DNA of 64,000 nucleotides from a bacterium (GTDB lineage Archaea > Thermoplasmatota > E2 > JACPAO01 > JAHFTW01). A program made the translations under genes and the position numbers. Where the stretch lies: contig JAZJZE010000009.1 of the NCBI GenBank assembly GCA_040390065.1, forward strand, positions 520,556 to 584,555, read 5' to 3'. Numbering within the stretch: the first letter of the stretch is position 1; each line of letters opens with the position of its first letter. Of this stretch, positions 21,858 through 58,493 are shown one piece after another. Under the pieces are notes generated by a model. That model did not search any database. It worked only from the letters and a program-made list of their open reading frames with translations, and was not told the DNA's origin.

Positions 21858-21868
21858 TCGTCGGCGCG

Positions 21869-26175: not shown

Positions 26176-26621
26176 GTTGCCGTGGCCGTCTGTTCGGCGC
26201 CGTCGGAGGGATCAACCACAAGGTGGAAGTGGCCGATGATTGAGGCATAGGCCGTAATGGACTCCCCCGTGTTCATGAGGTGGCTTGCGGCGCCGTCCTG
26301 GTGCGTGCCAGGGTCGATTGCGCCCGGTACGTTGACGCCCGTTGTGTGGGTGTAGTATGAGACGCCGTATTCGTAGTCATAATCGGCGAGGGTCGACGAG
26401 CCACTGACGCTTGTGAACCACTCGGCGCTGCAACCGCTTCCGTAGGGGTGCAGGATGACCCAGGCAACGGCAGTGGTGGTGATGCACTGGGCAGGAGGAG
26501 TGCCGTAGAGAGTCTGGCAGATAGTGGCTGCGTCCGGCGTCCCGGACACCGGCAGCGCCGTCAATACGAGCATTCCCATTGCAATCAAGCCGAACATCCT
26601 GGGCATAGAGTTGTTGGTCAT
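26169..26621 (-). CDS. Hypothetical small secreted protein
   Basis: Within ORF 26169..26714. ATG 26621 gives MTNNSMPRMFGLIAMGMLVLTALPVSG (signal peptide). The upstream part of the ORF reads through a C12 homopolymer. Confidence 0.55.
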   Translation of the reverse strand: MTNNSMPRMFGLIAMGMLVLTALPVSGTPDAATICQTLYGTPPAQCITTTAVAWVILHPYGSGCSAEWFTSVSGSSTLADYDYEYGVSYYTHTTGVNVPGAIDPGTHQDGAASHLMNTGESITAYASIIGHFHLVVDPSDGAEQTATATC

Positions 26622-26665
26622 TGCGTTTGTCCTGACCCCACCGTGAGGCCAAACGCTGCCAAGGC

Positions 26666-26677
26666 GGGGGGGGGGGG
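26666..26677. repeat. G12 (C12 on the coding strand) homopolymer
   Basis: Counted in the sequence. It sits between an ATAGATA TATA-like element (minus sense, about 26679-26686) and the ATG at 26621. Confidence 0.9.
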
Positions 26678-26775
26678 TATCTATCTGCCGGCGAGATGAC
26701 TGGAACGATTCCAACAGCAGGCCGCCTCCCGACCGATTCGAGAACGCTTATCCTCCGCCGCCCAGGTGGTCGCCT

Positions 26776-45065: not shown

Positions 45066-45142
45066 ATCCGCCCGCTCGGGTCAACAGATGCTCGAGATGA
45101 CGACGGCTTTTCCGTCACGACTTCGCCTCCGTCGTCGGCATC

Positions 45143-45170
45143 GGTTTCATCGGTTCAATCTGTTGACCAG
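45143..45170 (+). repeat. 9-bp-phased array GGTTTCATCG GTTCAATCT GTTGACCAG
   Basis: Read directly from the sequence, 78 nt downstream of the gins51 stop. Near-copy of the array at 21831-21857. Confidence 0.7.
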
Positions 45171-45202
45171 GAGTCGTCTCGGGGGCGACGCGACATCACC
45201 TC

Positions 45203-46181: not shown

Positions 46182-46197
46182 TCTTGCGTCCAACGGT

Positions 46198-46319
46198 GTC
46201 CAGGTTTGGCCCTTAGCGCAAGCTCGGCCAGCATTGGAATCCACAGAATCCTGCGTCGAAGCGCTGTCAAGGTTTGGCCCCCGCGCCGAGCTCGCCCAGC
46301 ATTGGAATCCACCGAATCC
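46198..46319 (+). repeat. Two ~54-bp direct repeats (46198-46251 and 46266-46319)
   Basis: GTC(C/A)AGGTTTGGCCC..GC.C.(A/G)AGCTCG(G/C)CCAGCATTGGAATCCAC(A/C)GAATCC occurs twice, 68 bp apart, between the convergent rps27e and membrane-protein genes. Confidence 0.8.
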
Positions 46320-46378: not shown

Positions 46379-46846
46379 TTAAGCCAGCAATAGGACGGCG
46401 GCCGTGAGGCCAATCCCAGCGACAAAGGTCCACCAAAGGAGGCTCTCCCGATGCCCCGCGCGGCGCCATTCCTCGGACGGCACGCCCTCCTTCATCGCTT
46501 GCATCAGCCGGAAAGAACTGGCCAAACCCATGGCGATGAACGAGCCGCACAGAGCCCAGCCTGCGGCGACGGCTATCCATGCGGCCCAGGCGGCACCCTC
46601 GGGCTTGACCCACACCGCTACGACGACGAGGCCAACGAGCAGGAAAATCGGGTAAAGCCCCCAGAACCAGACGCGGTCGCGACGCCACAATGCTTCGACG
46701 CGAGCGTCGTTGTCGGCGCGGAAGTCGACACGCCATACACCGAAGCGTTCGCGTTCGAGGCGGATCTGGCGGCCATGGGCCTTGGCCGAGATGAGGATCA
46801 GCGCGAGAGTGGCGACGGTTTCGGCGGCCAGGGCCCAATCGCGCAC
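46379..46846 (-). CDS. Hypothetical membrane protein
   Basis: C-terminal part of ORF 46379..47062 from GTG 46846 (VRDWALAAETVATLALILI...), with 4 TM segments. The longer ORF would overlap the aIF2-alpha start. It lies antisense inside the conserved S27e/aIF2-alpha pair. Confidence 0.55.
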   Translation of the reverse strand: MRDWALAAETVATLALILISAKAHGRQIRLERERFGVWRVDFRADNDARVEALWRRDRVWFWGLYPIFLLVGLVVVAVWVKPEGAAWAAWIAVAAGWALCGSFIAMGLASSFRLMQAMKEGVPSEEWRRAGHRESLLWWTFVAGIGLTAAVLLLA

Positions 46847-46904
46847 AACCCTGGAGAAAACCGGTCCCCTAAAGCCTGATATCAGAGACGCTTCTCCCCA
46901 AACC

Positions 46905-47708
46905 GTGGCTAAACTCAACCCCTTCCCTGAGGAGGGCGAACTCGTCGTCGGTACCGTGCGCGAGGTGCAGAACTTCGGCGCCTTCGTGACGCTCGAGGAG
47001 TACAAGGGCAAGGAGGGCTTCTGCCACATCCGCGAAGTCGCTCCGGGTTGGGTGAAGCGCATCCGCGACTACGTGCGCGAGAAGCAGCGCGTCGTGTGCA
47101 AGGTCATGGGTGTCGACGCCAAGAAGGGCCATATCGACCTCAGCATCAAGGCCGTCAACGACCACCAGAAGCGCGAGACCATCCAGGCGTGGAAGAACGA
47201 GCAGAAGGCGGACAAGTTCCTCGAGATCATGGCGGAGCGCGAGAAGACCACGGTCGAGGCGCTCATGGCCACGTTCGGCCGCGACGTCATCGCCAAGTTC
47301 GGGACACTTTACCAGGCCTTCGTCGAATCCGCCGAACTCGGCGCAGAGGCGCTGGAGCAAGAGGGCCTGAAGGGTCCGTGGGTCGCGTCGTTCGTGGCGT
47401 TCGCGCAGGAGAACATCCAGGCGCAGTTCGTCGACATCGCCGGCTACGTGGACATCCAGAGCCCCCTGCCCGACGGCGTGAAGCACGTGTCCAAGGCGCT
47501 CAAGCAGGCGGAGAAGTCCGAGTTCGAGGACGTCACCATCGAGGTCGCCTACATGGGGGCGCCGCACTACCGCGTCACCGTCCGAGCGCCCGATTTCAAG
47601 ATTGCCGAGACGGAATTGGAGAAGGCGGCGGAGCGCGCCGTCGACGCCATCAAGAAGGCGGGCGGGTCCGGCTCCTTCCACCGCGAACTCGAGGTCAAGA
47701 AGGCCTAG
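46905..47708 (+). CDS. eif2a: Translation initiation factor 2 subunit alpha (aIF2-alpha)
   Basis: In frame with ORF 46710..47708, starting at GTG 46905. S1 domain FPEEGELVVGTVREVQNFGAFVTLEEYKGKEGFCHIREVA, then the helical and alpha-beta domains. The 267-aa length is canonical. Confidence 0.92.
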   Translation: MAKLNPFPEEGELVVGTVREVQNFGAFVTLEEYKGKEGFCHIREVAPGWVKRIRDYVREKQRVVCKVMGVDAKKGHIDLSIKAVNDHQKRETIQAWKNEQKADKFLEIMAEREKTTVEALMATFGRDVIAKFGTLYQAFVESAELGAEALEQEGLKGPWVASFVAFAQENIQAQFVDIAGYVDIQSPLPDGVKHVSKALKQAEKSEFEDVTIEVAYMGAPHYRVTVRAPDFKIAETELEKAAERAVDAIKKAGGSGSFHRELEVKKA

Positions 47709-47709
47709 G

Positions 47710-47886
47710 ATGACGAACGCCCTCATGCGGTATTGCGGCACCTGCTCCGAGTACACGCTGAAGGAGGCCTGCCCGCGCTGCGGCGGCAAGACGGCGCAGA
47801 AGACGCCGGCCAAGTTCAGTCCCGAGGACCATTACGGCGAGTACCGACGCAAGCTCAAGAAATTGGATGCGTCCGAGAAGGCGTAG
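47710..47886 (+). CDS. nop10: H/ACA RNP protein Nop10
   Basis: Within ORF 47602..47886. ATG 47710 lies 1 nt after the aIF2-alpha stop. MRYCGTCSEYTLKEACPRCGGKT...PAKFSPEDHYGEYRR. Confidence 0.92.
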   Translation: MTNALMRYCGTCSEYTLKEACPRCGGKTAQKTPAKFSPEDHYGEYRRKLKKLDASEKA

Positions 47887-47898
47887 GGCATCGGTCCA

Positions 47899-48319
47899 TC
47901 GAAACCAACCAACTTGCGGCCACGTCAACCTCCGACGGCGGCGACGCGCACGAGGTGGCCGCTTGCTTGAGTTTGGGCGGCCTGGAAAAACAGTGAACCC
48001 CATGAAACGGCAGGCGACAGGACATCGGTTTCCCTGGGTTCGGGTGGTGCACTATTTTCCGCGGCCTCCCACACTCAGCGACGCCCCGCAAGCAAGATGA
48101 ATCCCAGCCCCCCCGGCGGCCCCCGCGCGCTCGCTACGCATCGCGCACTGGCCTCGCCCTCGCACGCCCGCGCTGCGCTGCGGGCTGCTCGCCCCGACCG
48201 GGGGCCCGCTTCGCCTTTCCTCCATTCCCTCAAGGCGTCGGCGCCGTCGGAGGACGACGGGAATGGCTCGGTGGCTTGGACAAGCAGGAATCAGTCCAAT
48301 CCGTGCAATCCGTGGTTCG
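47899..48319. repeat. Left copy of long inverted repeat (IR-L)
   Basis: Reverse complement of 54268..54736. Identical blocks include 48063-48085 = rc 54550-54572 (23 nt), 48243-48270 = rc 54327-54354 (28 nt) and 48088-48106 = rc 54529-54547. The centre is diverged and carries indels. Confidence 0.85.
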
Positions 48320-48331
48320 CGTGGGCGACGG

Positions 48332-49288
48332 CTAGTGCGCCATGCGTGCCAACTTTTCCGCCTTCGTTGGCTGGTGCACGTGCGTGATGAGGTGCGTCCA
48401 TGCGAGGAGCCGCACGAGCCATGCGCCGGTGTCGACTTGCCACCATTTCATGCCGATGTAGGCGGCGTTGGGGAAGGCGTGGTGGTTGTTGTGCCAGCCT
48501 TCGCCCCAGCCGAAGATGGCGACGATGGGGTTGTTGGCGCCGCGGTCGTTCGTCTTGAACGGGCGGCGGCCCGACATGTGGCCGATGGAGTTGACGCTCC
48601 ACGTCGTGTGGTGCATGAGGCCGACGCGGATGAGGCCGCCCCAGACGAAGCAGTCGAAGGCGCCGGCAAGCGTTCCGTAGGCGAGGTAGCCGATGATGGC
48701 GGGCAGCACAAGAGAGAATGTGGTCCAGAAGACCCAGGTACGTGTGAAGAACGCGACCACCTTGTCCTGCATGAGCTTCTCGTAGGCGAGTCCGCCGTAG
48801 ACCATGCGGTCCTTGAGCATCCATCCCATGTGTGCGTGCCAGAAGCCTTCCAGTGGGCTGTGGGGGTCGCCGGGCCGGTCGGCCTTGGCGTGGTGGCGCA
48901 GGTGCGTTGCCGCCCAACCGGCTGGCGGGCCTTCGAGGGCCATCGTGCCGGCCATGAGGAGTCCGATCTTCGCGGGGGTCTTGGCGGTAAAGGCGCGGTG
49001 GGTGAGCATGCGGTGGAAGCCGACGCTGACGCCGAGGCCGGTCAGGAGCCAGCCGCCGATGAGGAGGCCAATCTCGAGCCAGCCGACGCCATGGCCCCAG
49101 AGGCGCCACCCGGCGTAGCCGAGGGCCAGCAGGGGGAGGAAGACGATGACCAGGATGAGGAGCTTGCCCCACCACGGGTCGTGGCCGAAGGGGAACGGGT
49201 CCTGGCCCTTGTGTTCGCCTTCGTGGGCCGTCTGGTCCCACTCCTGTTGTTCGGGGTCTTGGGCGTGCGCTTGGTTCGACATGGGCAT
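48332..49288 (-). CDS. Membrane acyl-CoA/acyl-lipid delta-9-type fatty acid desaturase
   Basis: ORF of 318 aa. Three His boxes: HRMLTH, HLRHHAKAD and HNNHHAFP. TM hairpins are present. Confidence 0.88.
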   Translation of the reverse strand: MPMSNQAHAQDPEQQEWDQTAHEGEHKGQDPFPFGHDPWWGKLLILVIVFLPLLALGYAGWRLWGHGVGWLEIGLLIGGWLLTGLGVSVGFHRMLTHRAFTAKTPAKIGLLMAGTMALEGPPAGWAATHLRHHAKADRPGDPHSPLEGFWHAHMGWMLKDRMVYGGLAYEKLMQDKVVAFFTRTWVFWTTFSLVLPAIIGYLAYGTLAGAFDCFVWGGLIRVGLMHHTTWSVNSIGHMSGRRPFKTNDRGANNPIVAIFGWGEGWHNNHHAFPNAAYIGMKWWQVDTGAWLVRLLAWTHLITHVHQPTKAEKLARMAH

Positions 49289-49482
49289 CCCTCCTGAGAG
49301 TCATCCGGAGGGCTGCTAACCGGGCGGACGCTGCTTCCAGATTGAAACCTATGTTCGCTGTGGAAGTGGTTAAGGCCGGAGGTTAGGGGAACGGCTGCTG
49401 GTATCCTGCGCGACACCAAGGAGGTCTCCCGGCCGAGAAGAAACGAATGTGGAACGAGGGGAAGAGGAAGCGTTGGAGGTTC

Positions 49483-50232
49483 TCAGTCGTCGCCCTTGGC
49501 GTGGCGGCTGCGCTCGTCTTCGGCGTCGCGTTCGCGCATGCGCTCGCGGCGTTCGTCGTCGTGCGGCCGGTCGCCCTTCTCGCTCTCGAGATGCAGGACG
49601 GGCTTCAGCATCCACTTGCCGTTGCCGGTCTGGTGGAGGCTGCGGTCGAGGTCGAAGTCGATGGTGAGCTTCGTCTCCTTTCCGTCGTCGACGGTGAAGT
49701 GTCCCTTGATGCGCAGGTTGTGGCCCGGCACGGTCACGTTCGCCGTGCTGCCATCCTTGAGCGTGAGGCTCGCGGAGTCGACGGTGAGGCGGATCTGGTT
49801 GTAGGCGCCGACGGGTACGTCCGCGTCGCCCAGGAAGGCGCTTGCCGAGCCGTTGAAGGCCAGCAGGTCGACCGTGGTGGGCTTGTCCATGACCGTGATC
49901 CAGGCGCTCTCGTTGTCCGTGTCGTTGTCCTGTTGGACCTCGATGCTGATGGCGATGCGGCCGTGACCCGGTGCGGCGGAGACGTTGGCGCGCGCCGATT
50001 CATCGTCGCGTTCCTTCTCCTCCCGCTCCTGCTCCTCGCGTTCGGAATCGTTGTCGGTCTGGTGCAACTGCACCTTGCTGAACGTGACGTACACATGCGT
50101 CACGTCGTCGGTGGGGGCGTCCTTGACGAAGACGGAAGCCGTGCCCGTGGACCCGCTGGCTGACATGCAGCCGGCAAGGGCGGTGACTGCCAACGTCGCG
50201 ACGAGGGCGATGCCGATGGTTCGATGGTTCAT
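49483..50232 (-). CDS. DUF4382-like lipoprotein with acidic insert and tail
   Basis: C-terminal 249 codons of ORF 49483..51714 from ATG 50232. MNHRTIGIALVATLAVTALAGCMS, VFVKDAP, VDLLAFNG, PVGAYNQIRLTV and DFDLDRS. The rest of that ORF is a shadow of aspS. Confidence 0.7.
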   Translation of the reverse strand: MNHRTIGIALVATLAVTALAGCMSASGSTGTASVFVKDAPTDDVTHVYVTFSKVQLHQTDNDSEREEQEREEKERDDESARANVSAAPGHGRIAISIEVQQDNDTDNESAWITVMDKPTTVDLLAFNGSASAFLGDADVPVGAYNQIRLTVDSASLTLKDGSTANVTVPGHNLRIKGHFTVDDGKETKLTIDFDLDRSLHQTGNGKWMLKPVLHLESEKGDRPHDDERRERMRERDAEDERSRHAKGDD

Positions 50233-50330
50233 GTTGTTCGCACCTGCCTTGTCCCTGCGCGGGACGGCATATAGGGCATATCGGTCATTTGTCGAAGAAA
50301 CGCGCGATGGCGGTTGCCGCAAACGAAAGT

Positions 50331-51701
50331 CTACGGCGTGACCCGTGTCACGTCGCGCGGGAACAGGATTGCTTCGCGGATATTGGGCAATCCCAGCATC
50401 ATCATGAGAATCCGTTCGATGCCGATGCCGCAGCCGCCATGCGGTGGCATGCCGTACTTGAACGCCTCGAGGTAGGCCATGAAGTCCTTCGGGTCGAGAC
50501 CCCAGCGCCGGATGCCTTGCTCCAGGAGGACGGGGTCGTGGATGCGTTGGCCGCCGCTGATGAGTTCGACGCCGCGGTAGTCCAGGTCGAAGCCGCGGCA
50601 CAGGCGTGAGTCCATCGTGCCGTCTTCGGGCATGACGTAGAACGGCTTGGGGGCAAGAGGCCACTTCGTGATGAAGTAGAAATCGTGGCCCTCGCGCTTC
50701 ATGGCACGCCACAGCACTTTCTCGGCGGCGCTCCCGATGTCGTCGCCGAACTTCAGTTCCGCCATGCGCAAGTCGGCGTCGAGGTCCGCGGCCTTGAGTT
50801 CCTGGTTGATGATGGCAAGCGCATCCTCGTACGGGACGCGGCGGAAGGGTTGGCGCGGCACCTTGACGTCGGCGCCGAGGACGGCGACCTCGTCCGGCGT
50901 CTCCGTCACGACTTCGGCCCAGATGTGGCTGAGGAGCCCCTCGATGCTCTGCATGACGTCCTCCTCCGACTCGATGAAGGATTGCTCGATGTCGAACGCC
51001 GTGGACTCGTTCAGGTGCCGCACCGTGTTGTGCTTCTCGGCGCGGAAGTACCAGCCGACCTCGAAGACCTTGTCCAGGCCGCCGGCCATCATCATCTGCT
51101 TGTACAACTGCGGGCTCTGCGCGAGGTACACCTTCTTGCCGAAGTAGTCGAACTTGTAGGTGTCCGTGCCGCCCTCCGACGAGGCTCCGAGGATGTTGGA
51201 GGTGTGGATCTCGGTGAAGCCGTTGGCGCGCAGCCACGTCGTTCCCGCCTCGATGACCTTGGCGCGGATGGTGAAGATGGCCTTGCTGCGCGGGCCCCGC
51301 AGGTCGAGGAAGCGGTGGTCGAGGCGCGTGTCGAGGCCGGTCTCGATCTTGTCGTCCCAGACGGCGAACGGCAGCGGCGTCGCGGCGGCGTTGAGGACCT
51401 TTCCGCCCGTGGGGATGACCTCGAAGCCCGCCTTCGCCTTCTCCGTCTTCTGCACGAGGCCGGTGAGGCTCACGACGGATTCGGGTGTGAGGGCGACGAT
51501 CTGGTCGAAGAGCGCACCGAGGCCCTTGCCCTGCATCTCCTCCTTCTTGCACACGAACTGCACTTGCCCTGTCCGGTCGCGAAGGACCAGGAATGCCATG
51601 ACGCCCTTGGCGCGCACGGCGTGCACCCAGCCAGCAAACGTCTGAGTCGTGCCGAAGTGCGCGGGCGTGACCTGGCCGCAGCCGAGGGTTCGGAGGGTCA
51701 T
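50331..51701 (-). CDS. aspS: Aspartyl-tRNA synthetase, archaeal type
   Basis: ORF of 456 aa with OB-fold N-terminus, FLDLR, class II motif 2 YFRAEKHNTVRHLNES and motif 3 GGCGIGIERILMMMLG. Confidence 0.95.
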   Translation of the reverse strand: MTLRTLGCGQVTPAHFGTTQTFAGWVHAVRAKGVMAFLVLRDRTGQVQFVCKKEEMQGKGLGALFDQIVALTPESVVSLTGLVQKTEKAKAGFEVIPTGGKVLNAAATPLPFAVWDDKIETGLDTRLDHRFLDLRGPRSKAIFTIRAKVIEAGTTWLRANGFTEIHTSNILGASSEGGTDTYKFDYFGKKVYLAQSPQLYKQMMMAGGLDKVFEVGWYFRAEKHNTVRHLNESTAFDIEQSFIESEEDVMQSIEGLLSHIWAEVVTETPDEVAVLGADVKVPRQPFRRVPYEDALAIINQELKAADLDADLRMAELKFGDDIGSAAEKVLWRAMKREGHDFYFITKWPLAPKPFYVMPEDGTMDSRLCRGFDLDYRGVELISGGQRIHDPVLLEQGIRRWGLDPKDFMAYLEAFKYGMPPHGGCGIGIERILMMMLGLPNIREAILFPRDVTRVTP

Positions 51702-51743
51702 CGCGAGTTTGCACCCGATGCGGCGCTTAAGGGCAGCGGCGCC

Positions 51744-52313
51744 TTACTTCGCCTTCTTGCTGGCCGCCTTCGGGGTTGGCGGGGCTGCGGGTGGGGCAGC
51801 GGCCATGGGCTGCGCGGCGGGACGAGCCATCATGAGTTGCACCATGGGCCAGGCGAGGACGAGGCAAAGCGCCGCGGCAAACAGGGTGAGGGGCGCCGCG
51901 CCGCCGTAATCGGATGCCGGGGTCGTGAAGGCCAGGATGGCCGTCAAGGCTGCGATGGCAAGCCCGGCCTGGAACAGCCAGGCGGGCGACAGCGACGGCC
52001 GGCGCACGTACAGGATCACGCCGACGGGGACGAGGCAAGCCAGGACCGTGAGGGCAAGGCGGATGTCGCCGACGCTGGGGATGATGGTCTTGTTGTTGCC
52101 GTAGACCGGGAAGTTGAGGAGCGGGACGAGGCCGACGAGAAGGGTCACAATTCCCAGGACGAGGTTGGTTCGGCCACGGGAAAGCAAGACGAGAACCCCG
52201 GTCACCATGATGGCCGCCACGTCGACCAGCGGCACGACGTCCCCGCCGACGACAAGGGATGCCGCGCCAAGGACGGCGCACACGGTTCCAGCAATGGGCA
52301 GGGCTTTGCTCAT
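51744..52313 (-). CDS. Hypothetical polytopic membrane protein with Ala/Pro/Lys-rich tail
   Basis: Within ORF 51744..52445. ATG 52313 gives MSKALPIAGTVCAVLGAASLVVGG, with 5-6 TM segments. Confidence 0.6.
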   Translation of the reverse strand: MSKALPIAGTVCAVLGAASLVVGGDVVPLVDVAAIMVTGVLVLLSRGRTNLVLGIVTLLVGLVPLLNFPVYGNNKTIIPSVGDIRLALTVLACLVPVGVILYVRRPSLSPAWLFQAGLAIAALTAILAFTTPASDYGGAAPLTLFAAALCLVLAWPMVQLMMARPAAQPMAAAPPAAPPTPKAASKKAK

Positions 52314-52448
52314 GCCATCAGATTGACGACCGTGATAGAAACGCTTCGCACGCGACGCGGCGGCACGAAACGGACGGCCGGCGCATCTGGGCTGAACCGA
52401 ATCGGCGCGTTCCATGCGTGGCAGCCCGGAGAGCAATCTGCGCAAGAT

Positions 52449-54107
52449 TCACTCGCGGTTGCCCTTGAAGCCCTCGCTCCAGAACACCATGACGAGGATC
52501 CATGCGACCAGGATGGCTCCGGCGCCGAAGAGGAATTGGCCGACGCGCGCCGACGGCGCCGCCGACGAGTAGACGAGGGCGAGGCCGAGGACCAGCGCGG
52601 CGGCCATGATCGTGAACCCGGTCTTGAGGATACCGCGGCCTTGCGCTGACTTGATGCCCTCGAGGCCCGCGACCTCGACGCGCGTCGTGAGTTCGTTGCG
52701 CTCGATCTTGCGCAGTACCGTGTTGAGGGTGTGCGGCAACGTCCGGCCGAACTTGAGAAGCTCTGTCAGCGCCTCCTGCACCATCTCCTTCTGCGCGCCC
52801 GGGCTGGAGATGTTCTTCCAGGCGACGTCGGCCACGAACGGGTCGAGGACCTCCACGAGCTCGAAGTCGGGGTCGAGGGTTCGGCAGATGCCCTCGAACT
52901 GGAACAGCGCCCGCGTGATGAGCGCGAAGTCCGGGGGCAGGAGCATGCGGTGGCTGCGCGCCAGGCCCACGATGAGGTCCATGAGGACCGGGTCGGCCAC
53001 CGAGACCTGCTCCCGGTCGATGTAGTCCATGATGCGCTCGACGTCGGCGCGCAACCGCTTGGAATCGACTTCCGCCCGCTGGTCGCAAAGGTCGAGGATG
53101 GCTTCGACGGTCCCTTCCACGTGGCCGCCGCCCAACGCCGTGATGAGTTGCAAGATCGTCTTCGCGCGGCGCTCCGAGACGATGCCGACGGCGCCGAAAT
53201 CGAGGAAGGCGACGACGTTCCCGGGCAGGATGAGGATGTTGCCCGGCGACGGGTCCGCGTGGAAGACGCGGTCCACGAAGATCTGCTTCGCCATGGATTC
53301 CGTGAGAATGCGCGCCACACTCGGCCCGTCGACGCGCGACAGGGCAAGGGGCCCGGTGAGCTTCACGCCGTCCATGAACTCCATCACGAGGACCCGCTTG
53401 CTGCACAGCTCAGGGACGACTTCCGGGATGCGGACCTTGCTGTTGCCACGACAGTTGTCCGCAATGCGCTGCGTGTTGCGCATCTCGTAGCGGTAGTCCA
53501 GTTCGCGCTCCATCATGAGGCGCAGCTCCTCCAGGTGGTCGGATGGTTGCCAGACCCGCGAGCCGGCGAAGGTCTTCTCCACGAAGGTGACCAGCCTCCG
53601 GAGAATGCGGAAGTCGGCCTCCATCTCCTCCTCGATGTCCGAGTGCTGCACCTTCACCGCGACGCGGCGTCCGTCCCGGAGTGTCGCCTCGTGGACTTGC
53701 CCGATGGACGCGCTCGCGATGGGAACGGGGTTGAATGCGGCGAAAACCTCGCTCGCGTCGCGGCCCAACTCGGCGCGGATGATGCGGGCCACCTCGTTTG
53801 GCGACGTGGCCGGCGCCTGGTCGTACAGCTTACGGAACTCCTCGACGTACTCCTTCTCCAGGAGATCGGGGCGCGTGGCCAGCAGTTGGCCGAGCTTGAT
53901 GAAGGTCGGGCCAAGTTGCTCGAGGAGCTTCCGGGTCCGCACCGGCGCGGGCTCCAGGTTCTCGGGCTGCGCCTTGCCGCGAAGGACCGTCGACAGGAGT
54001 CCCCACGCGTTGTTGCGAATCAGGATGGTGAGGATCTCGTTGAAGCGCGAACGACGGCGCCGCACGGCGAGGGCTTCCGCGACGGCTTCGGGCACGGTGT
54101 GGGCCAT
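52449..54107 (-). CDS. ubiB: ABC1/UbiB-family atypical protein kinase
   Basis: Within ORF 52449..54326. ATG 54107 gives MAHTVPEAV. LGPTFIKLGQLLATRPDLL, ASASIGQVHEA, VAVKVQH, HADPSPGNI and two C-terminal TM helices. Confidence 0.9.
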   Translation of the reverse strand: MAHTVPEAVAEALAVRRRRSRFNEILTILIRNNAWGLLSTVLRGKAQPENLEPAPVRTRKLLEQLGPTFIKLGQLLATRPDLLEKEYVEEFRKLYDQAPATSPNEVARIIRAELGRDASEVFAAFNPVPIASASIGQVHEATLRDGRRVAVKVQHSDIEEEMEADFRILRRLVTFVEKTFAGSRVWQPSDHLEELRLMMERELDYRYEMRNTQRIADNCRGNSKVRIPEVVPELCSKRVLVMEFMDGVKLTGPLALSRVDGPSVARILTESMAKQIFVDRVFHADPSPGNILILPGNVVAFLDFGAVGIVSERRAKTILQLITALGGGHVEGTVEAILDLCDQRAEVDSKRLRADVERIMDYIDREQVSVADPVLMDLIVGLARSHRMLLPPDFALITRALFQFEGICRTLDPDFELVEVLDPFVADVAWKNISSPGAQKEMVQEALTELLKFGRTLPHTLNTVLRKIERNELTTRVEVAGLEGIKSAQGRGILKTGFTIMAAALVLGLALVYSSAAPSARVGQFLFGAGAILVAWILVMVFWSEGFKGNRE

Positions 54108-54267
54108 GGCCTGCGTCGGTTTAAGAAAGAAGGGGGCGGCGCCCGCCCCGACTTCTCCACAGATTTCGCGGAATCGTCGGTCTGCATTCGGGCGAGCTCT
54201 TGCACGTCCTGCACGCACTCCGACTGGGAGCAGATTCCGCCGATTGACGTTCAGGCCTGCTCCGGTT

Positions 54268-54736
54268 CGAACCACCGAACGCACAGAACATACCGAACCG
54301 CCGGGGAACCTACGTGTCCAAGCCAACGAGCCATTCCCGTCGTCCTCCGACGGCGGCGACGTCGTGAAGGAATGGCAGGAGACTGGGGCGACGCCCGGTC
54401 AACCGACGCAACGGACGCAACCGACACCGACGAGCCCCCGGCCGGGGCGAGCGACTGCGCCGCGAAGCGCGCAGAGCGAGGGCGTGGCAAGCCGCGAGGC
54501 GAAGCCGCGGCGAGGGCCGCCGGGGGCCTGGGATTCATCTTGCTTGCAGGGCGTCGCTGAGTGTGGGAGGCCTCGGAAAACAGTGAACCACCCGAAACCA
54601 GGGAAACCCATGTCGTGTCTCCTGCCCTTTCATGTGGTTCACTGTTTTTCCAGGCTGCCCACACCCCACTATGCGGCCACCTCGTGCAAGTCGCCGGCGC
54701 CGCAGGATGATGTGGCCGGGAGGTGGTTGGTTTCGA
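54268..54736. repeat. Right copy of long inverted repeat (IR-R)
   Basis: See IR-L. It contains an internal palindrome, GGAAAACAGTGAACCAC (54575-54591) against GTGGTTCACTGTTTTTCC (54634-54651). Confidence 0.85.
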
Positions 54737-54789
54737 CCGACGGCTTCGGCGTCCCAACGCCCAGCCGGCCGAGGCTCCCCCTCCACCCG

Positions 54790-55720
54790 AAGCAAGTCTT
54801 ATCCAACCGGCTGCAAAGGAAGCACAGGAAGCGTGCAGCCGGGGCCGCACCCGTAGCGAGCTTTCCGGAAAATGCCCTTAATCCCCCGCCCATTCAGGGT
54901 GTTTGCCCGCGCAAGCGGGTAACGGTCATCGCGGTGGGAGGGGCTGGAAACGGCCTCCCCGACGCCCGAGGGTTCGGAGCAATCCGGATCCGCGGGCGCG
55001 CCGGGACCGGCGGGGTGCACTTCGGTGTTCTCCCCCGTCGGCGACGGCACTCGGCGTCCCGCAAGGGACGTCGCGGCACTGCGATGGATGGGCCGCCTTC
55101 GGGTGGTCCTTCGCCGTGCACCAACCGCACCATCGTCCTCCCTCGTGGAAGGCGGTGATGGGATCCAGTCGGGAAACCGGCCGGAGAACGACGCGCTTTG
55201 CAAGAAGCGTGATGCGGTGGATCGTCTGGCATTCGGGTCAGGCTGTTCTTCTGGCCGCAAGGTCGGGCCCCGCGGACTTGTTCCGTGGACGCCTCGGGTC
55301 ATCATCCGGGAAGATGCATGGGACTCTGCATCCGCCCCACACCAAACCAGGCATGCGTCTGAAGAGTTGCAGGCTTTCGGCAACGACGCGCTGCACGGCA
55401 AACCGCAAGGCAAGCCGACGGCATGACCTGATCCAAACGGGATTGCCCTTCGGGGCAAGCGGCCCGCCACTTCGGAAACGAAGAAGGGCCTAGGCGACCG
55501 AGTACGGTCCCGGAATGGATGCCGCCGACCCTCCGGGGAAGGCGACCGCGCATCGCAAGGTTCGCGGGGAACGGCAACCCGCAAGGGTGGCCGTGGCGTG
55601 GCGCCGCAAGGCGTCGGAACTGGCTTCGGCCAGACTGGCAGGGGGTCCGGGCAAGGTCAAGCCCGATCCGGGAAACCGCAAGGCGACCCGGGTCTCCGCT
55701 TGCGTGGGCAACCTCTTCTC
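54790..55720 (+). ncRNA. Candidate large structured RNA (~930 nt) of unrecognised class
   Basis: No credible ORF in any frame. At least 13 local hairpins are capped by GCAA (8), UUCG (4) or GAAA (1) loops when read on the plus strand. Nine stem positions are G-U on plus and would be C-A on minus. Boundaries are approximate. It ends in the pyrimidine run CTCTTCTCTCT. Confidence 0.5.
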
Positions 55721-55721
55721 T

Positions 55722-56963
55722 CTAGGCCGCGGCCATTCGGTAGACCGCGCCGCCGTGGTCGACGACGTAGATGTCGCGCTGGGCGTCTTCGCCGAACGAG
55801 CTGACCTGCAGAGCCGTTTCGAGCACGACGCGCGGCGTCCAGGTCGTGCCGGCTTTCGTCAAGGCCCAGATTGTTCCCGAGCAGTAGTCGGCGTACAGAT
55901 ACGCGCCGGCGAGGGCCGGCACCGTCGAACCACGGTACACGTACCCGCCCGTGATAGAGCAGCGCCCGCCGTCGTGACTGTACTCGGCGACCGGCAGGAC
56001 CGCGCTCGACGCGTCGACGTCGTCGCGGAATGGATGCGCGCCCTCGAATGCGTTCCAGCCGTAGTTGGTGCCGCCGCGGCCGGGCTGTTCCAGGTCGACT
56101 TCCTCCCATTGGTTCTGGCCGACGTCGCCAATCCACAAGTCGCCGGTCTGCGCGTCGAAGCTGAAGCGCCAAGGATTGCGCATGCCGTAATCCCAGATCT
56201 CACCGCGGCCCCCGCCGTTGGCAAACGGATTGTCGCTGGGGATACGCGGCACGGTTCCCGCATGGGCGTCGCCCGGTGGCCCGATGTCAATGCGCAGGAT
56301 TTTTCCCAGAAGCGTGTCGAGGTCCTGGCCGTTGCCTTGCGGGTCGCCCCCGGATCCGCCGTCGCCCATGCCGACGTAGAGCATGCCGTCCGGTCCAAAG
56401 GCGACCATGCCGCCGTTGTGGTTGGCGTACGGCTGCGCGATGGACAGGAGTGTGCGCGTCTTCACGGGGCCGACCGTCCCGCCAGCGAGCCCCCCGACCA
56501 TCTGGTACTCGACCACCTGAGTGTCGCCGCGCAAGTCGGTGTAGTCCACGACGAAGCGAGCATCGCCGGTTGCGAAACGTGGATGGAAGGCAAGACCCAG
56601 CAGACCCTGCTCGGCGCCGCCGCTCACTTGTCCCCGCAAGTCCAGGAAGTGCTGCGTCGCGCCGGGCGTGGCACGCGGCATCGAGACGACGAGGCCGTCC
56701 TGCTGGACGATGTAGAGCGTCCCGGACCCGGGGGCTTCCGTGACGAAGAGGGGCTGCGAGAGTCCGTCGATGATTTGGACGAGCTTCATGACGGGGCCGC
56801 CGCCTGGGAGGGACGACGTGGGAGTGGACGAGGACGCCGCGCCGCCGCTCGACCCGTACGGGCCGCCGTTGCATCCCGCGAGGGCGACCGCTGCCAGGAC
56901 GACGAGGACGCGCACGACGGCGCAGCGATCGACGCGGGTTTGGCCCTTGCGGCTCGGCCCCAC
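55722..56963 (-). CDS. PQQ-dependent sugar (glucose/sorbosone) dehydrogenase-like beta-propeller lipoprotein
   Basis: ORF of 413 aa. Lipobox LAGCNGG, then GLLGLAFHP, NHNGGMVAFGPDGMLYVGMGDGG, RNPWRFSFD and WIGDVGQNQWEE. GTG 56915 is an alternative start. The annotated start lies inside a duplicated coxII 3' fragment. Confidence 0.85.
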   Translation of the reverse strand: MGPSRKGQTRVDRCAVVRVLVVLAAVALAGCNGGPYGSSGGAASSSTPTSSLPGGGPVMKLVQIIDGLSQPLFVTEAPGSGTLYIVQQDGLVVSMPRATPGATQHFLDLRGQVSGGAEQGLLGLAFHPRFATGDARFVVDYTDLRGDTQVVEYQMVGGLAGGTVGPVKTRTLLSIAQPYANHNGGMVAFGPDGMLYVGMGDGGSGGDPQGNGQDLDTLLGKILRIDIGPPGDAHAGTVPRIPSDNPFANGGGRGEIWDYGMRNPWRFSFDAQTGDLWIGDVGQNQWEEVDLEQPGRGGTNYGWNAFEGAHPFRDDVDASSAVLPVAEYSHDGGRCSITGGYVYRGSTVPALAGAYLYADYCSGTIWALTKAGTTWTPRVVLETALQVSSFGEDAQRDIYVVDHGGAVYRMAAA

Positions 56964-57025
56964 AGCCCTACGAAATCGTCACGGTGCCATGCATTCCCGC
57001 ATCGAAGTGCCCGGTGATGTTGCAC
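56952..57025. repeat. 74-bp direct repeat, copy 1 (copy 2 is 57101-57174)
   Basis: The copies differ at 2 positions and are offset by 149 bp. Copy 2 is the genuine 3' end of coxB plus 16 nt of flank. Confidence 0.9.
56968..57025 (-). pseudogene. Orphan duplicate of the last 18 codons plus stop of coxB
   Basis: It translates to CNITGHFDAGMHGTVTIS*, identical to the CoxII C-terminus, with no upstream coxB sequence. Confidence 0.75.
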
Positions 57026-57116
57026 GCACGAGGGGGGCTGCCGCTGCGGCGTCCGCCGCAGCTCCGCCCCCTTCGAACCCCCCGCGTGGGGCCTCGCCGC
57101 GCTCGGCCCCACAGCC

Positions 57117-58493
57117 CTACGAAATCGTCACGGTGCCGTGCATGCCCGCATCGAAGTGCCCGGTGATGTTGCACCACATCTCCCAGTTGCCCTTCATGTC
57201 CGCCGTGGGCACGAAGAGGAATGAGCCGGTCGAGCCGCCCGCAATCGTCGCCGAGCTGGCAAGCACGTTGCCGCCGTGGGTGCCGATGTACAGGTTGTGC
57301 GGAATCGTGTGCACGTCCTTCAGGGTCACGAGGTACGTCTTGCCGACCGTGAAGTCAACGTGGTCCGGGATGAGACGGAACTCGCCCAGGCGGACCTCGG
57401 TGAGTTCCGCGTGGACGATGTTGAACGTGACGTGCGCCACATGGCCCGCGGACTGGACGCCTAGGACGGGCGAGCCCGATGGTGGAACGTCGACCGCGAA
57501 GAACGCTTGGCCACCTGCAGGCACGCTGTTTGGACCGGCACCTGCCAGAGTAGCCGACGGGAACGGCTGGTCGTTCCACGTGATGTTGGCCGGCTGGGCC
57601 GTCGGGTTCGTCACGTTCAGGATGATGCGCGCGCCACTCACCACCGTCTGGTCGCCCGTCAAGGAAAGGCCGGTAGCCGTGATCGTGGCGTCGTAGTCCA
57701 TGACGACGGAGGCGGCGGGCTCCATGGCCTGCAGCTGGTGGTGCAGAAGCCACATGTCGTACATGGGACGCGGCACCGACTTGATGGCGGCGTGCATGTA
57801 GGCGTGGCCCGGATTGAGGCACATCTTGTTGCACTGCACCAGGTAGTCGCCCTCGGGGAGGCTTACCGTTTGATCGTTGTACTTGTTCGCCCCAAGCGGG
57901 TTGGCGTCGACGAACATGACGTAGGCGCGGTTGGCGTCCAGCACTTGCCAGGCGTGGATGACGTCTGCCGACGTGATGTTGAATCGGATGGGCTCGTCCC
58001 GCGGCACCCAGAACGTGTTGGCCGCAGACACCGGGCCGCCCGTGAGGTCGGCCGGGGATTCGACGCGCACGTTGTGGCCGTAGTCCGCCTCCCAGTTCCA
58101 TTGGCTGGCCGTGATGCGGATCTCGATGTGCACGTCCTTCGGGTCGATGCCGTGGTCGAGCTGGACGAGGCCGCCATAGGCCGCGTAGCCGATCCACAGC
58201 ACCATGATGAGAGGGATGACGACCCAGGTGATCTCTGCATTCAAGTTGTGGCGCTCCTTCTCATGCGTCGCGCGGCCGTGGCCCGACCCTTCGCGGAACC
58301 GCACGATGACGACGACGAGCCACACGAAGACGATGGTGAAGACGATCGTGCCAAGCAGCGCGATGGTGTTGTACAGGCCCTCGACGAGCTGGCCGCGCGA
58401 GGTCAAGGCATGGGGCATGCCGAAGCCGGCCGACGCCGGCGCCGCCAGGAAGGCCACAAGGAGACTCAGGAGGGCGGGGAAAAGCTTGCGCAT
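57117..58493 (-). CDS. coxB: Cytochrome oxidase subunit II (CuA) fused to about 200 aa of extra cupredoxin-like domains ending in a type-1 copper site
   Basis: ORF of 458 aa. CuA ligands: H180 and C221-x3-C225-x4-H230-x2-M233 (VIHAW...QCNKMCLNPGHAYM). The C-terminal site is HTIPHN...WCNITGHFDAGMHG (C-x4-H-x4-M). Confidence 0.88.
   Translation of the reverse strand: MRKLFPALLSLLVAFLAAPASAGFGMPHALTSRGQLVEGLYNTIALLGTIVFTIVFVWLVVVIVRFREGSGHGRATHEKERHNLNAEITWVVIPLIMVLWIGYAAYGGLVQLDHGIDPKDVHIEIRITASQWNWEADYGHNVRVESPADLTGGPVSAANTFWVPRDEPIRFNITSADVIHAWQVLDANRAYVMFVDANPLGANKYNDQTVSLPEGDYLVQCNKMCLNPGHAYMHAAIKSVPRPMYDMWLLHHQLQAMEPAASVVMDYDATITATGLSLTGDQTVVSGARIILNVTNPTAQPANITWNDQPFPSATLAGAGPNSVPAGGQAFFAVDVPPSGSPVLGVQSAGHVAHVTFNIVHAELTEVRLGEFRLIPDHVDFTVGKTYLVTLKDVHTIPHNLYIGTHGGNVLASSATIAGGSTGSFLFVPTADMKGNWEMWCNITGHFDAGMHGTVTIS

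What the first reader, a model, noticed from the sequence alone, without database searches (positions are those of the whole stretch)
47899..54736. About 420-470-bp inverted repeats bracket a 6-kb five-gene block that includes the essential aspS
47899-48319 is the reverse complement of 54268-54736. Long identical blocks are listed under the features: 23-nt and 28-nt perfect matches, GCACGAGGTGGCCGC at 47948-47962 = rc 54673-54687, and CCTGGAAAAACAGTGAACC at 47981-47999 = rc 54636-54654. These are separated by a diverged, indel-rich centre. The repeats enclose exactly the minus-strand genes for UbiB, a membrane protein, AspRS, a DUF4382 lipoprotein and a desaturase. IR-L begins 13 nt after the nop10 stop, and IR-R is followed by the structured-RNA candidate. 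Each copy contains an internal palindrome around a GAAAC-containing spacer. Each also has a stem that is kept by a register shift: GCCATTCC..GGAATGGC in IR-R against CCATTCCC..GGGAATGG in the equivalent strand of IR-L. No transposase or integrase is present. Possible explanations are two paralogous ncRNA genes, a substrate for homologous inversion of the block, long processing stems for a read-through transcript, or remnants of a non-autonomous element pair.
Basis: seen in the sequence. Interest (0 to 1): 0.7.

Follow-up and report, generated by a model that had tools for sequence, protein, structure and literature searches.

The report
Inverted repeats flipped a gene block
Two ~430-nt copies of a non-coding repeat element face each other at the ends of a 6-kb block of five housekeeping genes in an uncultured Thermoplasmatota archaeon, and comparison with about 15 relatives shows the block has been flipped between them, which is a clean but ordinary case of repeat-mediated inversion.

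Summary
Window 47894-48320 (+) and 54268-54741 (-) are two copies of one ~430-470-nt non-coding sequence (about 80-84% identical; exact blocks of 15, 20, 24, 20 and 29 nt). They bracket desaturase, DUF4382, AspRS, a membrane protein and UbiB.

New result: in every relative with enough flank (about 15 Thermoplasmatota MAGs) the order is aIF2alpha(+) nop10(+) UbiB(+) AspRS(+) ... GSDH(-) COX2(-). In the window the flanks are unchanged and only the block between the repeats is reversed. Both breakpoints fall inside the arms. The closest relative (L002, AspRS 91% identical) has an inverted-repeat pair at the same two sites with the block un-inverted.

The arms are not RNA genes of any known family. 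They are full-length members of a mosaic intergenic repeat family (hairpins, a ~100-nt GC-rich core, 9-mer arrays). That family occurs on at least 16 contigs of one metagenome, next to unrelated housekeeping genes.

Best explanation: homologous recombination between two inverted copies of a MITE/BIME-like repeat flipped the block. UbiB keeps its own promoter, inside the flipped segment. No recombinase or transposase lies within about 10 kb. This is an ordinary mechanism, nicely documented, involving a repeat family apparently undescribed for this lineage.

The parts
47894..48320 (+). IR-L: left copy of the repeat element, 'S' orientation on the + strand. It fills the convergent nop10 / desaturase intergenic region.
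   Evidence: It is spanned entirely, with unique flanks on both sides, by an independently assembled Logan contig, L155 = window 47055-48499 at 100%.
54268..54741 (-). IR-R: right copy of the repeat element, 'S' orientation on the - strand. It lies between the RNA-candidate region on the GSDH side and the UbiB promoter.
   Evidence: Its inner 185 nt are contiguous with UbiB in Logan contig L001 = window 48996-54485.
48321..54267 (-). The flipped block: desaturase 48332-49288, DUF4382 lipoprotein 49483-50232, AspRS 50331-51701, membrane protein 51744-52313, UbiB 52449-54095/54107. All are on the - strand.
   Evidence: Pfam. tblastn synteny against about 15 relatives. blastn against L002: 48329-49265, 50331-51701 and 52453-54073 are inverted, while 46430-47880 and 54789-58440 are collinear.
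47968..48078 (+). Long hairpin module of IR-L (about 37-bp arms, about 30-nt loop). It carries one of the window's nine T>=5 runs, on the - strand at 47986-47990.
54561..54664 (-). Long hairpin module of IR-R (arms 54561-54597 / 54628-54664, 84% complementary). T5 run on the + strand at 54645-54649.
48110..48205 (+). GC-rich core of IR-L (GCCCCCGGCGGCCC ... CTCGCCCCGACCGGGGGC). This is the module shared with L002 and the Ga0299913 contigs.
   Evidence: nhmmer profile hit, E=2e-8
54433..54528 (-). GC-rich core of IR-R.
   Evidence: nhmmer profile hit, E=3e-10
54392..54433 (-). 42-nt insertion specific to IR-R, made of about three GTTGCGTC(C/G)-like 9-mers.
   Evidence: alignment
47923..47947 (+). 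5' half of the subterminal closing stem of IR-L. It pairs with 48235-48259 (25 nt, 88%). IR-R equivalent: 54690-54710 / 54340-54360 (21 nt, 81%).
   Evidence: local-alignment score 35 against a shuffled maximum of 23 for IR-L, borderline for IR-R
54119..54127 (-). TATA-like box TTCTTAAAC of the UbiB operon, about 28 nt upstream of GTG 54095 (orthologous to the L002 ATG at 4037). It lies in unique DNA inside the flipped segment. A conserved GAAATCTGTGGA box sits at about 54156-54167.
   Evidence: comparable boxes in L004 and L026. Promoter function is inferred, not shown.

Best explanation
The two arms are inverted copies of a lineage-specific, non-coding, mosaic intergenic repeat element, about 430-470 nt long. 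Its modules are a 5' unit, a long hairpin, a ~100-nt GC-rich core with a variable hairpin, a 3' unit that pairs back with the 5' unit, and a tail of 9-mer repeats. Both copies were already present at the two ends of the UbiB-AspRS-desaturase block in the common ancestor of this genome and its closest sequenced relative. In the window's lineage, homologous recombination between the two arms (a crossover inside the repeats) flipped the roughly 6-kb block. The arms, the flanking genes and every reading frame were left intact. UbiB keeps its own promoter because that promoter lies inside the flipped segment.

The arms of one genome resemble each other far more than they resemble the arm at the same site in the other genome. 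The most economical explanation is gene conversion between the arms, which is the same recombination activity that can resolve as an inversion.

Shown: the repeat, the inversion, the position of the breakpoints, the pre-existing repeat pair in the un-inverted relative, and membership of a dispersed repeat family. Inferred: the recombination mechanism, gene conversion, and any present function of the arms (possibly operon-end terminator or insulator hairpins).
For: (1) The repeat is real and far beyond chance.

(2) Synteny. L002, L004, L008-L010, L013, L014, L019-L023, L025 and L026 all have aIF2a(+) nop10(+) UbiB(+) AspRS(+), followed in most of them by GSDH(-) COX2(-). The window has aIF2a(+) nop10(+) | desat(-) DUF4382(-) AspRS(-) memb(-) UbiB(-) | GSDH(-) COX2(-).

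(3) At DNA level against L002, window 46430-47880 and 54789-58440 are collinear and 48329-54073 is inverted. The breakpoints therefore lie within 47880-48329 and 54073-54789, that is, within the arms.

(4) L002 carries an inverted-repeat pair (3671-3943 / 13353-13691, 88-92%) directly after nop10 and directly after the desaturase, with the block un-inverted.

(5) It is not a misjoin. A second assembly (Logan contig L155) is 100% identical to window 47055-48499 and spans nop10, all of IR-L and the desaturase 3' end. The arms share at most 29 nt of exact identity.

(6) Paralogous arms are 77-80% identical over aligned positions. Orthologous arms are 48-54%, which is noise level.

(7) The arms are homologous, module by module, to repeats on at least 16 contigs of metagenome Ga0299913. 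Those repeats lie beside unrelated housekeeping genes: a thioredoxin-reductase-like gene, thymidylate kinase, TatD, an Lrp/AsnC regulator, DUF5781.

(8) No recombinase or transposase appears among the genes examined between 35.6 and 64 kb.

(9) From the literature: repeats and MITEs as hotspots of homologous recombination (PMC10969869); species-specific repeats are common in prokaryotes (PMC3372372).
Against: The arms are only about 80-84% identical today, with exact tracts of 29 nt or less. That is a poor substrate for homologous recombination, so the event must have happened when they were more alike, or conversion has since lapsed.

No read-level evidence for the right outer junction or for population heterogeneity could be obtained; exact-protein look-ups for GSDH and desaturase found nothing.

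Only two copies of the element occur in this 64-kb window, and the 'dispersed family' evidence comes from another organism's metagenome.

Higher within-genome than between-genome similarity could also come from lineage-specific turnover or re-insertion of a mobile family at the same sites, and not from gene conversion.

The longest exact tract (29 nt) is about what 84% identity predicts, so there is no positive sign of recent conversion tracts (my own estimate).
Confidence: 0.8

Rival explanations
1. The segment is a programmed, reversible switch (an inverton, or a plastid-like flip-flop). Both orientations coexist in the population, and orientation changes the expression of aspS, ubiB or their neighbours.
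For: Inverted repeats exactly bracket an operon-like block. The repeat pair has been kept at the same two sites in two genomes and the arms stay similar within each genome. An unrelated inverted-repeat pair also brackets UbiB-AspRS in L010.
Against: No recombinase gene within about 10 kb. The arms are long, imperfect and indel-rich, unlike short precise recombinase sites. The block carries housekeeping genes, and the UbiB promoter box moves with the block, so orientation should not switch it on or off. Each exact-protein look-up that found anything (nop10, AspRS) found a single contig, and those contigs show only the derived arrangement. All other relatives show one orientation.
Confidence: 0.06
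2. The two arms are paralogous genes for a structured non-coding RNA, and their inverted arrangement is incidental.
For: Each arm folds into a stem-closed structure with a long hairpin. A 25-nt closing stem is present in both copies, and one 8-bp stem is kept by a register shift. The HP2 hairpin of the core is kept with different stem sequences in 12 of 16 family members. The G-rich strand folds better in 15 of 15 cores.
Against: No Rfam family matches at gathering threshold or at E<=10. Folding z-scores are only -2.0 and -2.8. Outside the ~100-nt core, the sequence is not conserved even in a relative with 91% identical AspRS, and modules are shuffled between genomes. No promoter-like box is shared upstream of both copies. 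Copies occur in either orientation relative to neighbouring genes. RNAalifold on the core finds one covarying pair out of 19.
Confidence: 0.07
3. The arms are the two halves of a long RNA duplex that forms on a read-through transcript of the whole block, as in rRNA operon processing stems, and directs processing or stability.
For: On a - strand transcript that starts upstream of IR-R and ends after IR-L, the two arms would be complementary over about 400 nt.
Against: A TATA-like box conserved between the window and L002 lies about 28 nt upstream of the orthologous UbiB start, downstream of IR-R. This predicts a leaderless mRNA that excludes IR-R. Relatives such as L004 have only 144 nt between nop10 and UbiB and no arm at all. 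16-20% mismatches plus a 42-nt insertion would interrupt the duplex.
Confidence: 0.03
4. The inverted duplications are a by-product of the inversion (staggered-break or replication-based mechanism) and not its cause.
For: Inversions flanked by inverted duplications are known to arise this way in eukaryotes (general knowledge). Other local inversions among the relatives (the COX block in L004 and L014, GSDH in L008) have no flanking repeats, so repeat-independent inversion does occur in this lineage.
Against: L002 has the repeat pair at the same two sites while keeping the ancestral orientation. The arms belong to a pre-existing dispersed repeat family and are not copies of local unique sequence.
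Confidence: 0.04
5. The apparent inversion is an assembly artefact caused by the repeats.
For: Inverted repeats can mislead assemblers. The window's provenance is unknown, and the second assembly may come from the same reads.
Against: The arms share at most 29 nt of exact sequence, too short to confuse k>=31 assemblers. Logan contig L155 crosses the whole of IR-L from nop10 into the desaturase at 100% identity. L001 joins UbiB to the inner 185 nt of IR-R.
Confidence: 0.02

Closest known systems
Inversion by homologous recombination between inverted repeats (IS copies, rRNA operons or MITEs in prokaryotic chromosomes; flip-flop of the plastid inverted repeat)
   Same: Two homologous sequences in inverted orientation sit exactly at both breakpoints. 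The flanks are collinear with relatives and the interior is reversed. The repeats persist after the event. No genes are lost. MITEs and IS elements are recognised hotspots of homologous recombination (PMC10969869).
   Different: The repeats here are short (about 430-470 nt), non-coding and only about 80-84% identical. The segment is small (about 6 kb) and local, not symmetric about the origin or terminus. Both isomers have not been observed in one population.
Prokaryotic MITEs, including archaeal ones (Sulfolobus, Halobacterium, Haloquadratum, Desulfurococcus; reviewed in PMC10969869)
   Same: Small, non-coding, strictly intergenic, rich in secondary structure, and multicopy in a related organism, with size and sequence variants and truncated copies. 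They sit at the 3' ends of genes and between operons.
   Different: No target-site duplications. Terminal inverted repeats are not significant; only a subterminal 25-nt closing stem is. No cognate transposase or autonomous element has been identified. Only two copies occur in this 64-kb window.
REP / BIME mosaic elements of bacteria (PMC2817692)
   Same: Composite intergenic structures built from a small vocabulary of hairpin-forming modules, combined differently at different sites and in different genomes. They lie at operon ends.
   Different: The modules are larger (a ~100-nt core, 72-nt units, 9-mer arrays) than 20-40-nt REP palindromes. Copy number is unknown and apparently far lower than the >100 per genome typical of REPs. 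No RAYT transposase was looked for genome-wide. The host is an archaeon.
Invertons: site-specific invertible segments (Hin, Gin, Fim, and Bacteroides-type promoter switches)
   Same: A DNA segment bounded by inverted repeats, found in two orientations among related genomes.
   Different: No recombinase is nearby. The repeats are ten times longer and imperfect. The segment carries five housekeeping genes with their own promoter, not a promoter or a variable gene.
Species-specific repeats of prokaryotes (PMC3372372)
   Same: Repeats longer than 85 nt that are similar within a genome but have little or no detectable similarity in other species. This is exactly the pattern seen for the arms of the window, L002, L010, L008, L005 and L026.
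   Different: That category is descriptive only and implies no mechanism.

Membership tests
Repeat-mediated (homologous-recombination) inversion | Homologous sequences in inverted orientation at both breakpoints | tested here: met
   Arms 47894-48320 and 54268-54741. The breakpoints are bounded to 47880-48329 and 54073-54789.
Repeat-mediated (homologous-recombination) inversion | Interior reversed relative to outgroups while both flanks stay collinear | tested here: met
   About 15 relatives by tblastn; DNA-level comparison with L002.
Repeat-mediated (homologous-recombination) inversion | The repeat pair pre-exists in the un-inverted arrangement | tested here: met
   L002 arms 3671-3943 and 13353-13691 lie after nop10 and after the desaturase, with the block in the ancestral orientation.
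Repeat-mediated (homologous-recombination) inversion | Crossover point or both isomers demonstrable in reads | not testable with these tools
   No access to reads. Exact-protein look-ups returned only the derived arrangement or nothing.
MITE | Small, non-coding element | tested here: met
   430-470 nt. Indels are not multiples of three. No conserved ORF. The apparent 24-aa repeat next to the core has no Pfam match and no homologue among 5.8 billion proteins.
MITE | Multicopy and dispersed in intergenic regions | tested here: inconclusive
   At least 16 copies beside unrelated genes in metagenome Ga0299913. Only 2 copies in this 64-kb window and 2 in L002's 17.8 kb. The whole genome is not available.
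MITE | Terminal inverted repeats | tested here: inconclusive
   Complementarity of the extreme ends is no better than shuffles (26/200 and 70/200 reach the observed score). A subterminal 25-nt closing stem is significant in IR-L and borderline in IR-R. Only some family members carry the 5' unit.
MITE | Target-site duplications | tested here: not met
   No direct repeat flanks either arm. None appears in the flank-swapped configuration expected after an inversion either.
MITE | Cognate autonomous IS with matching ends | not tested
   No transposase in the window region examined or on the Ga0299913 contigs.
REP/BIME | Units are 20-40-nt imperfect palindromes present at more than 100 copies per genome | tested here: not met
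   The modules are larger. Copy density in the window is 2 per 64 kb.
REP/BIME | Mosaic combination of modules in intergenic regions | tested here: met
   Module order and content differ between the window, L002 and the Ga0299913 copies.
Inverton (site-specific recombinase switch) | Dedicated recombinase gene adjacent to the segment | tested here: not met
   Pfam on the called genes from 35.6 to 64 kb finds primase, GINS, PCNA, L44e, aIF2a, Nop10, GSDH, COX1-3 and a permease, and no recombinase.
Inverton (site-specific recombinase switch) | Short precise inverted repeats (about 10-40 bp) | tested here: not met
   The arms are over 400 nt, 80-84% identical, with indels.
Known structured RNA families (Rfam 15) | Covariance-model match | tested here: not met
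   0 hits at gathering threshold over the whole window. Only chance-level hits at E<=10 over 47500-56000. No tRNA or tmRNA.
rRNA-type processing stems | Both arms are co-transcribed with the enclosed genes | tested here: inconclusive
   A conserved TATA-like box between IR-R and UbiB argues against it, but no transcript data are available.

The most novel reading that the evidence does not exclude
The repeat pair may not be a passive relic. It could be a selectively maintained device, with the arms kept alike by gene conversion because they act together, either as a reversible flip-flop of an operon containing aspS and ubiB, or as paired terminator or insulator hairpins marking operon ends. 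The underlying mosaic element, with its structured GC-rich core and 9-mer arrays, would then be a new class of archaeal mobile or recombinogenic element in Thermoplasmatota. In that reading, the unrelated repeat pair that brackets the same UbiB-AspRS block in L010 would be convergence, not coincidence.
Probability: 0.1. Interest if true: 0.55.

Novelty: new member of a known kind. Interest (0 to 1): 0.3.

Why it matters
The locus is a clean natural example, in an uncultured archaeal lineage, of a small inversion caught together with its substrate. The same repeat pair is present in a close relative that has not inverted, and a compact 'empty site' exists in a more distant one. It shows that short, diverged, non-coding repeats reshape local gene order in Thermoplasmatota without disrupting genes.

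It also documents a mosaic intergenic repeat family that my three full-text searches did not find described for this lineage. For annotation and binning, it warns that synteny around aspS and ubiB is not fixed in this group.

It does not reveal a new mechanism.

Tried and rejected
(1) IS or TnpB-type element with a 3' structured RNA. The sequence next to the core seemed to encode a conserved C-terminus and 24-aa repeats (72-nt tandem units in L118). However, reading frames and stop codons are inconsistent between copies. There is no Pfam match and no homologue in the 5.8-billion-protein search. I read it as non-coding tandem DNA.

(2) Replication origin. By eye, the hairpin arms do not match the archaeal origin-recognition-box (ORB) consensus as I recall it, and there is no skew change at the arms. 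I did not pursue this further.

(3) Terminal inverted repeats at the extreme ends (TCGAAACCAACC... / ...GGTGGTTCGA) looked plausible by eye but are not better than shuffles.

(4) Target-site duplications: none, in either the direct or the inversion-swapped configuration.

(5) Virus association: 2 hits in viral contigs, both unrelated coding DNA.

(6) Of the 71 metagenome hits to the 20-nt motif, those lacking the family's upstream core box come from metagenomes other than Ga0299913, and I treat them as chance matches in GC-rich DNA. The few Ga0299913 exceptions (L119, L128) were recovered as family members by nhmmer or by their downstream tail.

(7) A conserved element upstream of UbiB in all relatives: absent. 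S-type motifs occur only in L002. L004 has a 144-nt spacer. L026 has a different GC-rich stem cluster.

(8) Inverted repeats at the other relatives' inversions (L004, L014): none found.

(9) Covariation in the core from a MAFFT alignment: uninformative, 1 of 19 pairs. Per-copy folding supports only HP2.

(10) Terminator idea: T>=5 runs are rare (9 in the window, counting both strands) and two of them lie in the arms. That is too few to test, so I keep this as speculation.

(11) Exact-protein look-ups for the desaturase and GSDH, to reach the right outer junction: nothing on record.

Full report
OBSERVATION. The inverted repeat is real. The repeat finder gives arms 47894-48129 / 54506-54741 (236 nt, 84% complementary) and 48222-48288 / 54309-54375 (67 nt, 90%). 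Aligning IR-L (+ strand) with IR-R (- strand) gives 84% mean column identity over about 430-470 nt. The centre is more diverged and indel-rich, with indels of 1, 3 and 42 nt. A 20-mer and the 29-mer each occur exactly twice in the window, against 0.01 and 0.00 expected from shuffles. Nothing comparable exists elsewhere in the 64 kb. The internal 37-bp palindrome and the register-shifted 8-bp stem are also as described.

CONTEXT. Pfam confirms the gene map. On the + strand: aIF2alpha (46710-47708) and Nop10 (47710-47886). On the - strand: fatty-acid desaturase (48332-49288), DUF4382 lipoprotein (49483-50232), class II AspRS (50331-51701), a Pfam-less membrane protein (51744-52313) and ABC1/UbiB (52449-54107). 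These are followed by GSDH (55722-56963, -) and COX2 (57117-58493, -). Further out are primase large and small subunits, GINS, PCNA and L44e on one side, and COX1, COX3 and an amino-acid permease on the other. No transposase or recombinase appears among these genes. AspRS relatives identify the organism as an uncultured Thermoplasmatota archaeon.

THE KEY RESULT: THE BLOCK IS INVERTED. I fetched 80 loci around AspRS homologues from reference genomes and mapped the window's proteins onto them by tblastn. Every relative with enough flank has aIF2a(+) nop10(+) UbiB(+) AspRS(+). These are L002, L004, L008, L009, L010, L013, L014, L019-L023, L025 and L026, with AspRS identity from 91% down to 65%. 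In most of them GSDH(-) COX2(-) COX1(+) COX3(+) follow. The window has the same flanks in the same relative orientation, but the block UbiB...AspRS...desaturase is reversed. At DNA level against the closest relative L002, window 46430-47880 and 54789-58440 align in the same orientation. Window 48329-49265, 50331-51701 and 52453-54073 align inverted. Both breakpoints are thus confined to 47880-48329 and 54073-54789, which are the two arms.

L002 itself carries an inverted-repeat pair (3671-3943 and 13353-13691; 88-92% complementary). One arm lies immediately after nop10 and the other immediately after the desaturase, with the block in the ancestral orientation. The repeat pair therefore predates the split of the two genomes, and the inversion is derived in the window's lineage.

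NOT AN ASSEMBLY ARTEFACT. The arms share no exact tract longer than 29 nt. A Logan contig from run SRR26324623 (L155) is 100% identical to window 47055-48499. It runs from aIF2a and nop10 through the whole of IR-L into the desaturase. A second contig (L001) equals window 48996-54485 and joins UbiB to the inner 185 nt of IR-R. I could not reach the outer right junction, because the exact-protein look-ups found nothing.

WHAT THE ARMS ARE. They match no known RNA family: no Rfam hit at gathering threshold in the whole window, only chance-level hits at E<=10 in 47500-56000, and no tRNA or tmRNA. They fold into a stem-closed structure, but z-scores are only -2.0 and -2.8. They are not coding, because the indels break every frame.

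The arms of the window and of L002 share an architecture. In order, it is a long hairpin, a GC-rich core ending in CTCGCCCCGRCCGGGGGC, a second hairpin that pairs back to the 5' region, and a tail of AATCYGTGG-like 9-mers. In sequence, however, they share little beyond the core.

A scan of metagenome contigs with the shared 20-nt motif gave 71 loci. About 16 of these, all from one metagenome (Ga0299913), carry the same ~100-120-nt core. The hits from other metagenomes lack the family's upstream core box, and I treat them as chance matches in GC-rich DNA.

The Ga0299913 copies lie next to unrelated housekeeping genes and in either orientation relative to them. The neighbours include a thioredoxin-reductase-like gene, thymidylate kinase, TatD, an Lrp/AsnC regulator and DUF5781. 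Longer copies (L097, L102, L130) align with the window's arms module by module:
- a 5' unit (CCGGCGGCGGCGAC...GAGTTGGCC);
- a CAGTGAAACC...GGTTTC hairpin;
- the core;
- a CGCCGYCGGAGGAC unit;
- a 3' tail (...GCAGGTTGAACC...TTCGTGCAATTCGTGGTTCG), after which similarity stops.

Other copies lack the 5' unit or carry one to three tandem 72-nt units. The arms are therefore full-length members of a dispersed, mosaic, non-coding intergenic repeat family.

Within the core, the second variable segment forms a hairpin in 12 of 16 copies, with different stem sequences. The first does not do so consistently. A sequence-only alignment shows almost no covariation. The G-rich strand folds better in all 15 copies, as expected from G-U pairing.

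A profile of the core finds two copies in the window (one per arm), two in L002 and none in L003-L026.

MITE criteria (PMC10969869) are only partly met. The element is small, non-coding, intergenic, and multicopy in a relative. But there are no target-site duplications, in either the direct or the inversion-swapped configuration. The terminal inverted repeats are no better than shuffles, and only a subterminal 25-nt closing stem is significant. In style it is closest to mosaic elements such as BIMEs (PMC2817692) and to 'species-specific repeats' (PMC3372372).

CONCERTED EVOLUTION. Over aligned positions the two arms of the window are 79.5% identical and the two arms of L002 are 76.5%. Every window-L002 pair, including arms at the same site, is 48-54%, which is noise for this base composition. 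With the pair at the same two sites in both genomes, the simplest reading is gene conversion between the arms. Lineage-specific turnover or re-insertion of family members at the same sites is the alternative. This step is inferred.

CONSEQUENCES AND FUNCTION. Between IR-R and UbiB lies unique DNA that is conserved with L002. It contains a TATA-like TTCTTAAAC (54127-54119) about 28 nt upstream of GTG 54095, which aligns with L002's ATG. A GAAATCTGTGGA box lies further upstream. L004 has just such a box in a 144-nt nop10-UbiB spacer with no repeat at all, an 'empty site'. L026 has one preceded by a different GC-rich stem cluster. So the operon's promoter travels with the block, the inversion breaks nothing, and IR-R is probably outside the mRNA. 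That argues against the processing-stem idea.

T>=5 runs are very rare in this 65% G+C window: 9 counting both strands. Two of them occupy the same position in the two arms' long hairpins. The one in IR-L lies 342 nt downstream of the desaturase stop on its strand. A terminator or insulator role at operon ends is therefore possible, but it is speculation.

RIVALS. A programmed inverton is unlikely: there is no recombinase, the repeats are long and imperfect, the cargo is housekeeping genes, and the promoter lies inside the segment. Paralogous RNA genes are unlikely: there is no family match, no conservation beyond the core, shuffled modules, and no consistent orientation. Inverted duplication as a by-product of the inversion is contradicted by L002. 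Misassembly is contradicted by L155 and L001.

COMPARISON AND NOVELTY. Mechanistically this is the textbook case of inversion by homologous recombination between inverted repeats. What is specific here is the quality of the natural 'before and after' series: empty site in L004, repeat pair without inversion in L002, repeat pair with inversion in the window. The other specific point is the repeat family itself. My three full-text searches returned nothing describing such a family in Thermoplasmata or Thermoplasmatota; they were broad and ranked mostly irrelevant papers, so this is weak evidence of absence. Archaeal MITEs are reported from Sulfolobus, Halobacterium, Haloquadratum and Desulfurococcus (PMC10969869).

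I rate it a new member of a known kind, with interest about 0.3. The most novel reading not excluded has a probability of about 0.1. In it, the arm pair is a maintained flip-flop or insulator device, and the element is a new archaeal mobile or recombinogenic class, with L010's unrelated repeat pair around the same block as convergence.

Noticed in passing
window 54789-55720 (+ strand); L002 14115-15000; between GSDH and COX2 in L008-L012: A non-coding region of about 930 nt directly outside IR-R looks like a large structured RNA gene. It is 75% identical to L002 over 640 nt, with frameshifting indels. It carries 6 GCAA-capped and 5 UUCG-capped hairpin motifs on the + strand and none on the - strand; L002 has 5 and 3 against 0. 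A ~150-nt 5' part is conserved in seven genomes. That part has an invariant TTTCCAGAAAAT-GCTAT promoter-like box, an invariant CCCGCGCAAGCGGG hairpin, and a GAAA-capped hairpin with compensatory changes (11 of 38 predicted pairs). There is no Rfam match. It stays with the GSDH flank and is not part of the inversion. It is potentially more interesting than the repeat itself.
   Followed up: partly
L010 7290-7473 and 11559-11749: An inverted-repeat pair of unrelated sequence (about 200 nt, 79-95% complementary) lies immediately upstream of UbiB and immediately downstream of AspRS in another relative. It brackets the same block, which there is in the ancestral orientation. This could be coincidence, given how few intergenic sites there are, or a recurrent landing site.
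   Followed up: partly
L008 4487-4699, 7435-7480, 11541-11778, 18883-19113; L005 11399-11525 / 21247-21315; L026 17346-17814 / 20808-20970: Several relatives carry their own species-specific intergenic repeats, often in inverted pairs, at equivalent intergenic sites around this locus (upstream of UbiB, downstream of AspRS, around the COX genes). Many contain CACAGA/TCTGTG-type short motifs.
   Followed up: no
L004 8610-13764; L014 15989-19863; L008 12987-14057: There are other local inversions among the relatives. The COX2-COX1-COX3 block (with GSDH in L004) is reversed in L004 and L014, and GSDH alone is reversed in L008. No flanking inverted repeats were detectable in L004 or L014. Small inversions seem frequent in this neighbourhood.
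   Followed up: partly
window 56952-57025 and 57101-57174: A 74-nt direct repeat, 97% identical and 149 nt apart, straddles the GSDH start and the COX2 stop. It is possibly a scar of the rearrangement that moved the RNA-candidate region from between COX2 and GSDH (as in L008-L012) to downstream of GSDH (as in the window and L002).
   Followed up: no
window 46194-46319; 21828-21884 / 45141-45197; 54156-54167; 48290-48320: Short 8-9-nt motifs of the type AATC(Y)GTGG / GGAATCCACAGAATCC / TCTGTTNCATCTGTT recur as small arrays in several intergenic regions. They are found upstream of aIF2alpha, upstream of the UbiB TATA-like box (conserved in L002), and in the tails of the repeat arms. They may be a binding site or a slippage-prone motif.
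   Followed up: no
L118 1508-1723: Three tandem 72-nt units adjoin the repeat core. On the reverse strand they translate to an apparent 24-aa repeat (FGxxxxGFLQSxDGGGxVLxDRTVV) with seemingly synonymous changes. Yet they have no Pfam match and no protein homologue. The coding-like pattern in a non-coding repeat is unexplained.
   Followed up: partly
window 6017-9088 and 25070-26775: My crude third-position GC filter called no gene in these stretches. Two of the window's nine T>=5 runs lie in the first (8126-8130 and 8797-8801) and one in the second (25855-25859). I did not examine them.
   Followed up: no
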